IMG/VR virus record: IMGVR_UViG_651053001_000005
Span: 62,001-87,371 of that record
Length of the DNA stretch: 25,371 bases
Strand: one strand, 5' to 3'
Origin: an uncultured virus (IMG/VR IMGVR_UViG_651053001_000005)
Lineage: Duplodnaviria; Heunggongvirae; Uroviricota; Caudoviricetes
The notes under the pieces are model-generated. The model was not told the origin of the DNA. It worked only from the letters and a program-made list of their open reading frames with translations, and made no database searches. Within the stretch, counting starts at the first letter, position 1; every line of letters starts with the position of its first letter. A program made the translations under genes and the position numbers. Shown one piece after another: positions 17,372 to 23,535 of this stretch.

Positions 17372-17470
17372 AGTAACTAAAGGGGAATTAATCCCCTTTA
17401 GCGTGTTATCTGCGTATACGTTTGCGTTGTCTCTCTGGTCGGAGACGCTTGCGTGTACGCTTTTTCTTTT
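17372..17470 (+). ncRNA. SR6-like antisense antitoxin RNA (ends approximate)
   Basis: Plus-strand promoter TTTACA (17338) and TG-T-TATAAT (17357-17365); hairpin TAAAGGGGA-ATTAA-TCCCCTTTA; antisense to the yonT 3' end; ends in GCGTGTACGC plus T-run; about 100 nt. Confidence 0.7.
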
Positions 17471-17585
17471 TGCTTTCTTTATTCTTCATCAGGTTTTGAA
17501 TCTTCTCAGCTATCGTTAAACAGTTGATGATTAAAACCGTGATAGGAATAAGGAAAGCAATTGTTATACCCACTTTCTCAAGCAC
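17406..17585 (-). CDS. yonT: Type I toxin YonT, 59 aa
   Basis: GTG start with RBS GAAAGGAGGTG; MLEKVGITIAFLIPITVLIINCLTIAEKIQNL...KKKKRTRKRLRPERQRKRIRR (TM helix plus polybasic tail). Confidence 0.9.
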   Translation of the reverse strand: MLEKVGITIAFLIPITVLIINCLTIAEKIQNLMKNKESKKKKRTRKRLRPERQRKRIRR

Positions 17586-20684: not shown

Positions 20685-23535
20685 TTGAAAAGAAAAAAAG
20701 ACGGATTGTCTAAGCAAGTTCACATTTACAGTGTGGATACATCAGCATTTTATAATGACAAAGAAAATTTATTACATAATAAGATTTTAAAGTCTTATAG
20801 ATACAGAGATTATCTTAAGACATTAGACAATGTACATAATAAACATAAGAAATACATTTCACAAAGAATTACATACCTTAAAGAATGTCTCTATTCTGCA
20901 TTCGAAGAACATAATGACATAAGAACACTTCGAACTGACAGCTTAAGGGACAATAAAGTGATTTCTTTATTTGATTCAGTGTTGACCCGAACATTAGGGA
21001 TTAAAGAAAATACCCTTTCAGAGGAAATCATGGTTGTCCAGACTTATCATTTTGAAGTATTGAAGGACATTATTGATCAAGGATTTTTACATAACAATGA
21101 AAAATACGTTTATTTCACAAGCAGCGCCGGTCAAATTCGTACAAAGAAGTCATGTTTCATTAAAAAAAGCACCTACGATAAGTATCAGGATGCTTTGACA
21201 TGCGGCTTAAGTATTGAAAAGATCAACTCCCTTGGTGGTAGCAGCATTAACAAATGGAATAGCTACATGGCCTTATCTAACAGCGCCAGTAGCCCTTGGG
21301 AGATTGATATTGATAAAGCTATTGTAGTCAACGACTTAGAAACCGATGTGTCGAGTCTCGTTGACTACATTGATCGAGAATACGAGATCACTCGAAAAAC
21401 AATGAACATTCCCATTGAGCATACAGATGGCTGCGGAATGATACTCCCCACTCTAAGTCATAAAAGCTTCATGGTAAGGCTCCCGTGGGTAAAGGGTTTA
21501 TTAGTCCCTTTTGATTTTCGTAAATTTGCTGAGGAAAACAAAGCTTTTAAAGTAACTGATATATACGGCAAGGAATGGGACATAGTGAAAGATGATGTTC
21601 AAATTATCTTCACTAAAAGTCAGTTTAAAATGTGGAAGTATTATTCATCGTGGGAAGAATATCAATTCAATTATAAAAAATATGGATGCTTAGGGGCAAA
21701 ACTCAACGAAGAAGATCCTTCTGTTGAAGGCAAGCTCACTTATCAAATGCTCCAGACACTTACAGATATCTCTGATGAAGAATTAATTCAAATGAGCTCA
21801 AAGACTGTAAAAGAAATAACCACATTGGGCACTGATAAAGAGACCATGTTAAGAGTTCTTGGAGCTACGGAGAAAAAGAAACATCGGACAGCTCTTCAGG
21901 ACGCTTTACTTCTATATCCAGAACTTCTTAACGATGATCACACGAAAGAAATTATTAAAAATAAAAAGAAAAGCATGATCAAAGATGCCAAATCAGGAAA
22001 ATTGCTTGTGGATGGAGCTCGTTATACATACTTATGCCCTGATCTATATGCTTTCTGCGAAAAATTATTTCTGAACATCCAGAATCCAAAAGGACTGCTT
22101 TCAGGAAGTGAAGTCCATTGTTCTTTATATGATGAAGGGTATATTGATATCCTCCGCTCCCCTCACTTATATAGAGAGCATGGTGTTAGGTGGAACAAAA
22201 AAGATGAGAAATATGAAAAGTGGTTCATTACCCCAGGTGTTTACACCAGCATTCATGATCCAATATCTAAACTGCTGCAGTTCGACAATGACGGGGATAA
22301 GGCCTTAATTATTCCTGATGAGTTAATCGTCAATATTGCCAAGCGTAATATGGAAAACATCGTTCCGTTGTATTATGAAATGTCTGTAGCCCAGAAACAA
22401 GAGATTAATAGCAAGAACATCTATGAAGCACTAACTCTTGCTTATGGGATCAATATCGGGGAGTACAGCAACAACATCACTAAGATATGGAACAGTGACA
22501 ACATAAACCTGGACGTGATCAAATGGTTATGTATGGAAAATAACTTTACTATCGATTAAATTTTTAGTCGCGTCGCATAGCGATATGCGGATGAAAAGTC
22601 AGTGAACCTAGAAATCTAGGGTGTGCATTCAGCGAAAAGTAGCGATAGGAAATGATCGTCAATGAGTGTGCTAACAGGGGAATTCTAAGTCCTTATCGAT
22701 ACGATAACCCTGTGCCAAGCGTTTACATCATGCTGGGAAGCACTTGTAAATGAAGGTGCAACGACCATCCTTTATGGAGTAATAATAAGGTGAAATTCCT
22801 TATTATGAAGCGCTGACTATCTGTCTAGCACAGATGATGATATGGTCTATTCCCTAATAAAATATCGGGAAACCGAGGGTATCAAAGTTCGCAAAAACCT
22901 TATTCATGCCTACCCGACCTGATCATGTCGATGAAAAAATCAAAGACTACATAAAAAATAAAGTACCCCACTTCTTCATCAATGCAAAGGATAAAGAAGA
23001 ACATAGCGTTGAGTTAATTAATGAAAGCACAGTAAACAAGTTAGACTCCATTATCCCCTCTGACCGAATTAATTTTGCAGCTGTTGCAGGGAAGTTCGAT
23101 TATCGCTTCCTGCTCAAGAACAAAGAGATTAAGTTGGACGAGGCAATTATTAGTGAGTACAAACGATTAGACCAAAACAAGAAATGGCTCATGAATGATG
23201 AAGACATTAAGCCTGGACAAAAACTTTATGTTTATAAGGTTATCAAAGACAGATTGCTGAAGATACATGAAGACGAACAATATGTTGCTGATGTTCTGAT
23301 TAAGTATCTGTATAAAAAGAAGAGTAAGTTCAAATCGACACTGTGGGAATGTTTCGGTGCTTGTATATTAAATAATCTAACACACAACCTGAAAACACTA
23401 AGAGTTTGCAGTGATTGTAAAACGCTATTTAGGGCTAAAACAAGCAAGAAACTTTTCTGTGGGAAATGTACAGTTAAGAGGAATAAACAAAAAACAAAGG
23501 AACGTGTCATTCGATTTAGAAATCAAAATGTGTAA
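20685..23535 (+). CDS. yonO: Single-subunit two-barrel DNA-dependent RNA polymerase YonO; join(20685..22556,22888..23535), 839 aa after splicing
   Basis: TDGCG, LRSPH and catalytic FDNDGD motifs; exons join in frame as [19 protein letters not shown]-terminal CxxC...CxxC. Confidence 0.93.
22557..22887 (+). ncRNA. Group I self-splicing intron (331 nt, no homing endonuclease) in yonO
   Basis: Exon ends in U, intron ends in G. P1 CGAU/UA pairs with UAGUCG, giving a U-G pair at the splice site. AGTCAGTG/CGCTGACT (P3), ACAGGG/CCCTGT, P7 GACCA/TGGTC within ATGATATGGTCT, P8 ATCTGT/ACAGAT, P9 CGG-GAAA-CCG. Confidence 0.93.

What the first reader, a model, noticed from the sequence alone, without database searches (positions are those of the whole stretch)
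22557..22887. Group I intron interrupting the phage RNA polymerase gene yonO
Removing 331 nt restores ID|FAKT and gives 839 aa, the length I recall for SPbeta YonO. The intron core is intact, with a compensated P7 (GACCA/TGGTC instead of the usual GACTA/TAGTC) and no endonuclease ORF. The SPbeta introns I know of are in ribonucleotide reductase genes. An in-frame TAA starts the intron, so late transcription would depend on GTP-dependent splicing, a possible metabolic checkpoint. Automated annotation would call this a split pseudogene.
Basis: partly seen in the sequence, partly recalled or inferred. Interest (0 to 1): 0.8.

Follow-up and report, generated by a model that had tools for sequence, protein, structure and literature searches.

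The report
Self-splicing intron in phage yonO gene
A 331-base self-splicing (group I) intron interrupts the RNA polymerase gene yonO of an SPbeta-like Bacillus prophage, so the enzyme can be made only after RNA splicing; it is real but an ordinary selfish phage intron.

Summary
Window 22557-22887 (331 nt) lies between two yonO reading frames, 20685-22556 and 22888-23535. Removing it gives 839 aa, 82.5% identical to the 839-aa SPbeta YonO. Intron-less SPBc2 reads ATCGAT|TTTGCAAAA at this point.

The insert matches Rfam group I (38.4 bits, below the cut-off of 50, E 3e-8). Its helices P2-P8, P7 included, are supported by covariation in 13 related phage introns.

One RNA-seq run holds a contig joining 22556 to 22888 exactly, next to the unspliced form.

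Among 45 related loci, 24 lack the intron. Seven carry this 331/330-nt form, 3 a 400-nt form, and 11 a form of about 1290 nt with a GIY-YIG homing endonuclease gene. All 21 intron-bearing alleles read TTC at the first codon of exon 2. All 24 intron-less alleles read TTT, a co-conversion mark of homing.

The "metabolic checkpoint" idea has no support. Public records annotate two split ORFs, and no paper I searched mentions the intron. This scan has already reported yonO introns on other DNA.

Verdict: a new member of a known kind, of modest interest.

The parts
20685..22556 (+). yonO exon 1 (624 codons, TTG start after a GGAGGGG ribosome-binding site). It holds the DNDGD catalytic motif at residues 534-538.
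   Evidence: Pfam RdRP PF05183 scores 32.8 bits against a cut-off of 23.8.
22557..22887 (+). Group I intron, 331 nt, with no endonuclease ORF. Its first three bases are an in-frame TAA and its last base is G (omega-G).
22553..22570 (+). P1. Exon CGAU plus intron UAA pair with UUAGUCG at 22564-22570. The splice-site U (22556) pairs with G 22567 as a U.G wobble.
   Evidence: Read from the sequence. The Rfam alignment places P1 here. Coordinates.
22574..22589 (+). P2 hairpin CGCAUA-GCGA-UAUGCG with a GNRA-type loop.
   Evidence: Helix 1 has 6 of 7 pairs with compensatory changes. Coordinates.
22598..22604 (+). P3 5' strand GUCAGUG, pairing with 22811-22817.
   Evidence: 13 of 13 distinct strand combinations fully paired. 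Helix 2 is 100% paired.
22607..22620 (+). Extra hairpin A (CCUAG-AAAU-CUAGG) between P3 and P4. It is part of a 21-nt motif that is invariant in this intron subfamily.
   Evidence: It never varies, so covariation says nothing about it.
22623..22671 (+). Extra hairpin B between P3 and P4, with the conserved loop AGGAAAUG.
   Evidence: Helix 4 has 7 of 9 pairs with compensatory changes. Alignment.
22674..22713 (+). P4 (ACAGGG/CCCUGU) enclosing P5/P5a. The endonuclease gene of the 1290-nt relatives sits in this P5a loop.
22714..22757 (+). P6, P6a and P6b (GCC...GGU; UUUACA/UGUAAA; UGCU-GGGA-AGCA).
   Evidence: Helices 7 and 8. Whole-intron MFE.
22763..22767 (+). P7 5' strand GACCA, pairing with UGGUC at 22843-22847 (a pseudoknot with P3).
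   Evidence: Helix 9 is 100% paired, with 3 of 5 pairs showing compensatory changes.
22768..22806 (+). P7.1 (UCC-UUUAU-GGA) and P7.2 (AAUAAUAAGG-UGAAAUU-CCUUAUUAU).
   Evidence: P7.2 is helix 10 (5 of 7 pairs compensatory). P7.1 is read from the sequence only.
22811..22817 (+). P3 3' strand CGCUGAC.
22819..22835 (+). P8 hairpin AUCUGU-CUAGC-ACAGAU.
   Evidence: Helix 11 is only 70.7% paired, because the sequence-only alignment is poor here. Whole-intron MFE.
22843..22847 (+). P7 3' strand UGGUC.
22852..22879 (+). P9: CCCU...AGGG enclosing UCGG-GAAA-CCGA (a GAAA tetraloop).
   Evidence: Read from the sequence. Moonbeam has UCUC-GAAA-GAGA at the same place. No formal count was made.
22888..23535 (+). 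yonO exon 2 (215 codons plus stop). Its first codon is TTC, which is strictly linked to presence of the intron.

Best explanation
Window 22557-22887 is a working group I (IA-type) self-splicing intron that has lost, or never had, a homing endonuclease gene. It sits in yonO, the gene for the single-chain late-gene RNA polymerase of an SPbeta-like Bacillus prophage. Translation of the pre-mRNA stops at the TAA that opens the intron. The intron RNA folds into the standard core: P1 with a U.G pair at the 5' splice site, P3-P8 with the P3/P7 pseudoknot, and a terminal G. The two transesterifications started by guanosine join 22556 to 22888 and restore an 839-aa YonO. That chemistry is inferred from membership in the family and was not tested. 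The element is a selfish homing intron. Its full form carries a GIY-YIG/NUMOD3 endonuclease gene in the P5a loop and spreads by cutting intron-less yonO alleles, then copying itself in together with a few flanking exon bases. The 331-nt form is an immobile relative that persists because it splices. Shown here: the boundaries, the restored frame, the fold by covariation, a spliced junction in RNA, presence/absence polymorphism, and the linked exon marker. Inferred: self-splicing without protein help, endonuclease activity and its target, and the cost or benefit to the phage.
For: 1. Precise insertion. Intron-less SPBc2 reads ATCGAT|TTTGC with a gap of 0, phi3T has 400 nt and BUCT083 and Goe11 have 1290 nt at the same point. 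The joined exons give 839 aa, 82.5% identical to SPBc2 YonO.
2. Rfam RF00028 matches full length, model positions 1-253, with E 3.1e-8 and 1.1e-9.
3. Structure. RNAalifold on 13 related introns predicts 51 pairs, 33 of them with compensatory changes. With P7 and P8 added there are 62 pairs and 94.8% of cells are paired, against 75.6% in shuffles (0 of 500 reach it) and 33-44% when partners are slid. For outer P3, 13 of 13 distinct strand combinations pair fully, against a shuffle mean of 1.06.
4. RNA. Run X15 holds a 59-nt contig (depth 90.3, 0 mismatches) joining 22556|22888 and skipping 331 nt (TA..AG), beside a contig that runs through the intron. The joined contig carries TTC. All 24 surveyed intron-less DNA alleles and SPBc2 carry TTT, so an intron-less DNA copy is an unlikely source.
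5. Mobility. Of 45 related loci, 24 have no intron, 7 have 331/330 nt, 3 have 400 nt and 11 have 1275-1296 nt. Ten of those 11 have a 308-codon open frame with GIY-YIG and NUMOD3 domains. The intron is 96-99% identical between loci whose exon 2 is 75-99% identical over its first 300 nt. TTC versus TTT at exon position +3 is linked to the intron in 21 of 21 and 24 of 24 alleles.
Against: The Rfam score (38.4 bits) is below the curated gathering score of 50.

The spliced junction was seen in only 1 of 4 RNA runs laid. X16 (same study, depth about 7) and X19 (depth about 7) show only the unspliced form, and nothing from X17 was laid.

That evidence is one short assembled contig with 29 and 30 letters on its two sides. 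It comes from a near-identical allele in another strain, not from the window's own sample. Contigs cannot show amounts, and DNA can be present in RNA libraries.

I found no convincing P10 pairing between the 3' exon and the guide sequence.

The P5 base pair is weakened in this form (UUC/GAU here against UUC/GAA in the long form). A competing hairpin, UUAUCG-AUA-CGAUAA, can be drawn, although the MFE of the P4-P5 segment gives the family-like fold.

Self-splicing in vitro was not tested.
Confidence: 0.9

Rival explanations
1. Regulatory checkpoint. The intron has been kept because the need for splicing ties YonO synthesis, and so late transcription, to GTP level or to the growth state of the host.
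For: The in-frame TAA at the intron start means no full-length YonO is made without splicing. YonO transcribes the late genes of SPbeta (PMC5467207, passages read). A paper on T4 introns links splicing to translation and growth state; I saw only its title, in the reference list of PMC2504315.
Against: Twenty-four of 45 close relatives, and 8 of 24 SPbeta-like phage records including SPbeta itself, have no intron. It is therefore dispensable. The pattern is that of a homing element: endonuclease-bearing forms, a linked exon marker, and an intron more conserved than its host gene. No data here relate splicing to GTP or growth.
Confidence: 0.08
2. Protective or competitive role. The intron, even without its endonuclease gene, splits the target site and so makes this phage's yonO immune to the GIY-YIG endonuclease of related SPbeta-like phages. 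The endonuclease-bearing forms would act as a weapon against intron-less relatives, resident prophages included, as shown for PhiPA3 against PhiKZ.
For: Endonuclease-bearing, endonuclease-less and intron-less alleles coexist in one phage group. SPbeta-like phages meet in one cell and recombine: phi3T-SPbeta hybrid phages are on record, some with the intron and some without. There is a precedent in an RNA polymerase gene (PMC11620839, passages read).
Against: Nothing here shows that the endonuclease is active, where it cuts, or that it lowers a rival's yield. This would be an added benefit on top of the selfish-intron reading, not a replacement for it.
Confidence: 0.25
3. A dead insertion. The 331 nt are a decayed intron remnant that no longer splices, leaving yonO a split pseudogene in a defective prophage.
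For: The Rfam score is below the cut-off. There is no endonuclease gene. Two of three RNA runs with cover showed only the unspliced form.
Against: A spliced junction is present in RNA run X15. All core helices are intact and pair. Both exons stay open and in register for 839 aa. The same 331-nt form, 99% identical, sits in 7 of 45 loci on differing exon backgrounds, with the frames that I checked intact.
Confidence: 0.03

Closest known systems
Intervening sequence at the same yonO site in public SPbeta-like phage genomes (phi3T, SPR, SPbetaL3-L7, vB_BsuS-Goe11/Goe14, BUCT083)
   Same: The insertion point and junctions are the same. The cores are 96-99% identical.
   Different: Those records have a 400-nt form or a 1290-nt form with a GIY-YIG ORF in the P5a loop. 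The window has a 331-nt form with a short, different P5a. That form is in none of the 24 phage records but is in 7 of 45 IMG/VR and genome loci. In the four records I opened, no intron is annotated in the three that carry it; they show split ORFs.
Group I introns of SPbeta ribonucleotide reductase genes bnrdE and bnrdF (Lazarevic et al. 1998 and 2001; neither paper is held, and I saw them only as cited in the review PMC8270828)
   Same: Group I introns in essential genes of the same phage group. The window's own record has further RF00028 hits, three (65.4, 52 and 38.2 bits) and one weaker, in its ribonucleotide reductase region.
   Different: The host gene differs (RNA polymerase), and so does the intron lineage: BLAST with the yonO intron finds only itself in the record.
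PhiPA3 gp210 intron in the virion RNA polymerase gene (Birkholz et al. 2024, PMC11620839; passages read)
   Same: A group I intron interrupting a phage RNA polymerase gene at a conserved site, with related phages that lack it.
   Different: PhiPA3 is a jumbo Pseudomonas phage, its polymerase has several subunits, and its endonuclease is an HNH nickase. A competitive function was shown there by experiment; none is shown here. The window's copy has no endonuclease gene.
Introns of Bastillevirinae and other Gram-positive phages (PMC11878797, passages read), such as the Moonbeam DNA polymerase intron
   Same: They share the 5' domain with the 21-nt motif GTGAACCTAGAAAWCTAGGGT, as well as P2, P3, P7.2 and P9. 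They are IA-type.
   Different: The host genes differ, and so do the endonuclease position and type. In Moonbeam the ORF lies after P4', not in P5a.
T4 td intron with I-TevI (recalled, not checked here)
   Same: A phage group I intron with a GIY-YIG endonuclease, an in-frame stop soon after the 5' splice site, and co-conversion of flanking exon markers on homing.
   Different: The phage, the gene and the loop that holds the ORF all differ. The comparison rests on memory.

Membership tests
Group I intron (Rfam RF00028) | Score at or above the family's curated gathering score | tested here: not met
   38.4 and 38.2 bits against a cut-off of 50. The E-values of 3.1e-8 and 1.1e-9 are significant and the match covers model positions 1-253. 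The NAR 2025 paper says the Rfam model represents phage introns poorly.
Group I intron (Rfam RF00028) | Conserved core helices P3-P8, including the P3/P7 pseudoknot, supported by covariation | tested here: met
   62 pairs with 94.8% of cells paired, 42 pairs with compensatory changes, 0 of 500 shuffles as high, and 33-44% when partners are slid. P3 pairs fully in 13 of 13 combinations.
Group I intron (Rfam RF00028) | 5' splice site after a U that pairs with G in P1, and a 3'-terminal G | tested here: met
   Exon CGAU pairs with GUCG at 22567-22570, with the splice-site U opposite G. The intron ends in G at 22887.
Group I intron (Rfam RF00028) | Precise excision from RNA that restores the host reading frame | tested here: met
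   An RNA contig joins 22556|22888 in X15 (1 of 4 runs laid). The 839-aa frame is restored. The intron-less allele has the same junction.
Group I intron (Rfam RF00028) | Guanosine-initiated self-splicing in vitro | not testable with these tools
   This needs an in vitro transcription and splicing assay.
Mobile (homing) group I intron | An intron-encoded homing endonuclease gene | tested here: not met
   There is no ORF of 40 aa or more in 22557-22887, and the longest open frame is 34 codons. Relatives do have one: a 300-aa GIY-YIG + NUMOD3 ORF, open in 10 of 11 long forms.
Mobile (homing) group I intron | Presence/absence polymorphism at one site, with co-converted flanking markers | tested here: met
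   Of 45 loci, 21 carry the intron and 24 do not. TTC is found in 21 of 21 intron-bearing alleles and TTT in 24 of 24 intron-less alleles.
YonO-type single-chain two-barrel RNA polymerase | Sequence similarity to SPbeta YonO and the catalytic aspartate motif | tested here: met
   82.5% identity over 839 aa, with DNDGD at residues 534-538. Pfam RdRP PF05183 scores 32.8 bits against a cut-off of 23.8. Forrest 2017 showed that the aspartate triad is needed for catalysis.

The most novel reading that the evidence does not exclude
The yonO intron is more than a passenger. It may be part of a contest between SPbeta-like phages that meet in one Bacillus cell. Forms carrying the GIY-YIG endonuclease would cut the late-transcription polymerase gene of intron-less rivals, resident prophages included. 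The endonuclease-less 331-nt form seen here would be a cheap immunity allele that protects yonO from that attack. This would be a temperate-phage counterpart of the PhiPA3/PhiKZ case.
Probability: 0.22. Interest if true: 0.55.

Novelty: new member of a known kind. Interest (0 to 1): 0.3.

Why it matters
1. Annotation. In the model phages phi3T, Goe11 and BUCT083, whose records I opened, yonO is filed as two broken genes. Anyone studying YonO-dependent late transcription in these phages needs to know that the protein is made from a spliced mRNA.

2. A natural series for homing studies. The group offers endonuclease-bearing, deleted, endonuclease-less and intron-less alleles of one gene in a tractable Bacillus phage system. 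A one-base exon marker (TTC/TTT) tracks the intron. This suits tests of homing, co-conversion and phage-against-phage interference.

3. Intron classification. The intron belongs to a large phage subfamily with two extra hairpins between P3 and P4, which the Rfam model scores poorly. This bears on how phage introns are found and classified.

None of this changes what is known about how group I introns work.

Tried and rejected
- The Rfam gathering-threshold scan of the whole window found only the SR6 antitoxin RNA. The intron appeared only at the E-value threshold.
- Rfam on related introns gave nothing for Perkons, CB457P1 and EFP01, and only a weak hit downstream in Moonbeam. I therefore used my own anchors and RNAalifold.
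- I first drew a split P3: an outer GUCAG/CUGAC and an inner UGCU/AGCG around the two extra hairpins. RNAalifold instead gives a continuous 7-bp P3, with GU/GC closing hairpin B. The pairs that decide between the two never vary, so I cannot tell and I report the RNAalifold version.
- No P10 pairing was found by eye.
- A full-intron covariance model was not built, because the tool's time limit rules out a model of about 330 positions.
- The PDB sequence search with SPBc2 YonO gave 0 hits.
- RNA runs: X17 had nothing laid, and X16 and X19 showed only unspliced contigs at depth about 7. This says nothing against splicing.
- Literature: searches found no paper that mentions a yonO intron. Word searches of the text of Kohm 2021 (preprint), Kohm and Hertel 2021 and Forrest 2017 found no mention either.
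- The Lazarevic 1998 and 2001 papers are not held. I could not check whether they mention other SPbeta-group introns.
- I considered a chance split, a pseudogene, and an IS or group II element, and rejected them on the evidence above.
Full report
**The observation**

The window's + strand has an ORF from 20685 (TTG, after GGAGGGG) to a TAA at 22557-22559. A second frame starts at 22888 and runs to a stop at 23533-23535. Between them lie 331 nt that begin TAAATTT and end TATCAAAG.

In phage SPBc2 (SPbeta) the same gene, yonO, is uninterrupted and reads ACTATCGAT|TTTGCAAAAACC at this point. When the 60-nt flanks are mapped, the distance between them is 0 in SPBc2, 400 in phi3T, and 1290 in BUCT083 and Goe11. 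Joining the window's two exons in a script gives 839 aa plus stop. That is the same length as SPBc2 YonO, with 693 of 840 aligned columns identical. The catalytic DNDGD motif is at residues 534-538, about 90 residues before the insertion point.

**It is a group I intron**

A gathering-threshold Rfam scan of the window did not report it. At the E-value threshold, RF00028 matches 22547-22869 over the whole model with 38.4 bits, against a cut-off of 50, and E 3.1e-8. A search of the whole 87-kb record gives 38.2 bits and E 1.1e-9. The score is low because this intron belongs to a phage subfamily that the model fits badly. A 2025 paper on Bastillevirinae introns makes the same point about Rfam and phage introns (PMC11878797, passages read).

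I tested the fold by comparison. BLAST with the intron finds partial matches in introns of unrelated phage genes. These include Perkons, the Moonbeam DNA polymerase, the EFP01 ribonucleotide reductase and the Enterocloster phages.

- Of 86 motif instances, 19 also had my 3' anchor within reach. In 19 of 19 the five bases before the motif pair fully with the five after the anchor. That is 13 distinct combinations, against a mean of 1.06 (maximum 5) of 13 when partners are shuffled.
- For the alignment I used 13 of the 15 distinct compact sequences. L075 and L100 were left out as near-copies of the window. RNAalifold predicts 51 pairs, 33 of them with compensatory changes.
- With P7 (a pseudoknot) and P8 added there are 62 pairs in 11 helices, and 94.8% of cells are paired. 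Shuffles give 75.6% (0 of 500 as high) and slid partners give 33-44%.
- P8 scores only 70.7%, because the sequence-only alignment is poor there.
- P7 is GACCA/UGGUC in the window and the phi3T-type intron, GACUA/UAGUC in 9 of 13, and GGUCA/UGACC in 2.

The splice-site U pairs with G in P1 (CGAU with GUCG), and the last intron base is G. The whole-intron MFE, which cannot draw the pseudoknot, recovers P3, both extra hairpins, P4, P5, P6a/b, P7.2 and P8.

One feature is not in the textbook scheme. Two hairpins sit between P3 and P4. One is invariant (CCUAG-AAAU-CUAGG). The other covaries in 7 of 9 pairs and usually has the loop AGGAAAUG.

**Evidence of splicing in RNA**

Six RNA runs hold much of the stretch. 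I laid four of them.

- X15 has four contigs with the shape of an assembly bubble. One exon-1 contig ends at 22557. One contig runs 22528-22917 through the intron (depth 184). One 59-nt contig covers 22528-22556 joined directly to 22888-22917 (depth 90.3, no mismatch; "skips 331, TA..AG"). One exon-2 contig starts at 22888.
- X16 (same study) and X19, both at depth about 7, have only the unspliced form.
- Nothing from X17 was laid.

So the junction is seen in 1 of 4 runs. It rests on one short contig, from a strain whose prophage differs from the window at a few sites.

Could the joined form be DNA of an intron-less allele? The joined contig reads GAT|TTC. All 24 intron-less alleles surveyed, and SPBc2, read GAT|TTT. 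That makes the DNA explanation unlikely.

**What kind of element it is**

Among the 24 SPbeta-like phage records that span the site, the record spans indicate three classes:

| Form | Records | Which |
|---|---|---|
| Insert of about 1290 nt | 7 | SPbetaL4-L7, BUCT083, Goe11, Goe14 |
| Insert of about 400 nt | 9 | SPR, SPbetaL3, phi3T twice, phi3Ts, three hybrids, Hybphi3Ts |
| No insert | 8 | SPBc2 twice, SPbetaL1, L2, L8, Goe12, Goe13, Hyb3 |

I verified the exact sizes for only four of these records.

The long form carries a 300-aa ORF with GIY-YIG (E 1e-6) and NUMOD3 (E 9e-8) domains and a weak HTH match. This ORF lies in the loop closed by P5a. The 400-nt form is an internal deletion of that ORF. 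The window's form has a short, different P5a there.

In 45 loci found with the exon-2 protein (3 genome contigs and 42 IMG/VR contigs), the counts are as follows:

| Form | Loci |
|---|---|
| No intron | 24 |
| 331/330 nt | 7 |
| 400 nt | 3 |
| 1275-1296 nt | 11 |

Ten of the 11 long forms keep a 308-codon open frame, and L016 does not. All 21 intron-bearing loci share identical junctions. The intron is 96-99% identical between loci whose exon 2 is only 75-99% identical over its first 300 nt.

The third base of exon 2 is C in 21 of 21 intron-bearing alleles, and in the window, on six different flanking haplotypes. It is T in 24 of 24 intron-less alleles. Both codons encode Phe. A synonymous marker 3 nt from the insertion point that always travels with the intron is what homing with co-conversion predicts.

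**How it most likely works**

Shown:
- The intron is inserted precisely in a conserved patch of yonO.
- The RNA can fold into a group I core.
- A spliced junction exists in RNA.
- The element is polymorphic and carries marks of homing.

Inferred from what is established for group I introns and GIY-YIG homing endonucleases:
- Guanosine attacks after U22556, and the freed exon 1 attacks after G22887.
- The endonuclease of the long forms cuts intron-less yonO, and repair copies the intron in.
- The 331-nt form cannot home by itself, but it persists because splicing makes it nearly harmless.

More than half of the close relatives do without the intron. A competitive or protective role, as shown for the PhiPA3 intron in an RNA polymerase gene (PMC11620839), is possible but untested.

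**Comparison and novelty**

The closest thing is the same intron in public SPbeta-like phage genomes. There it is annotated as split ORFs: yonO_1, a hypothetical protein and yonO_2 in Goe11; two hypothetical proteins "similar to yonO" in phi3T; and a "GIY-YIG nuclease family protein" in BUCT083.

Full-text searches for yonO with intron terms, phi3T with group I intron, and SPbeta with intron and endonuclease terms found no paper describing it. Word searches of the text of the three SPbeta and YonO papers found no mention of it either. The two Lazarevic papers on SPbeta introns are not held.

This scan's earlier notes report yonO-type polymerase introns in at least seven other genomes. They name the same occupied site in phi3T, SPR, Goe and BUCT083. 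I re-tested that claim here. The finding is therefore a sound, apparently unpublished, but ordinary case: a new member of a known kind.

Noticed in passing
window 17374-17471 (+): Rfam SR6 antitoxin RNA (RF02892) at 91.7 bits, E 1e-15. It is an antisense RNA of a Bacillus type I toxin-antitoxin pair, as expected in an SPbeta-like prophage.
   Followed up: no
own record G000:C1 15477-17290 (- strand), outside the window; loci L006, L007, L009: Three further RF00028 hits (65.4, 52 and 38.2 bits) and a weaker fourth (31.7 bits, L007 2105-2407). They lie in a region that matches the ribonucleotide reductase genes of SPbeta-like phages. The provirus therefore carries at least four or five group I introns.
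   Followed up: partly
window 22603-22623; loci L059-L138: The 21-nt motif GTGAACCTAGAAAWCTAGGGT (end of P3 plus an invariant hairpin) marks a large phage intron subfamily. It has two hairpins between P3 and P4 that the Rfam model does not represent. I do not know whether this module has been described.
   Followed up: partly
L133:294-671 (-): This intron has the same 5' exon/P1 (GATCGAT|TAAATTTTAGTCGC) and the same P9/3' end as the yonO intron, but different P2, P5, P6, P7.1 and P8. It may be a recombinant, or a relative at a similar target. Its host gene was not identified.
   Followed up: no
L014 and L015 (genome contigs): Assemblies titled Streptomyces sp. and Paenibacillus sp. hold a yonO locus with the 331-nt intron, 99% identical to the window. 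One of them is a 1065-nt contig. These look like Bacillus contamination or mislabelling rather than true hosts.
   Followed up: no
window 22694-22700: The P5a loop of the 331-nt form contains TATCGAT, identical to the last 7 nt of exon 1 (22550-22556). This is probably chance, since ATCGAT is a palindrome. It could in principle compete for the guide sequence.
   Followed up: no
L026 (IMGVR_UViG_2799112227_000002); same contig as L100: One copy of the short form is 330 nt, with one T fewer in the T-run of the P1 loop (TAAATTTTA against TAAATTTTT). The junctions are unchanged.
   Followed up: no
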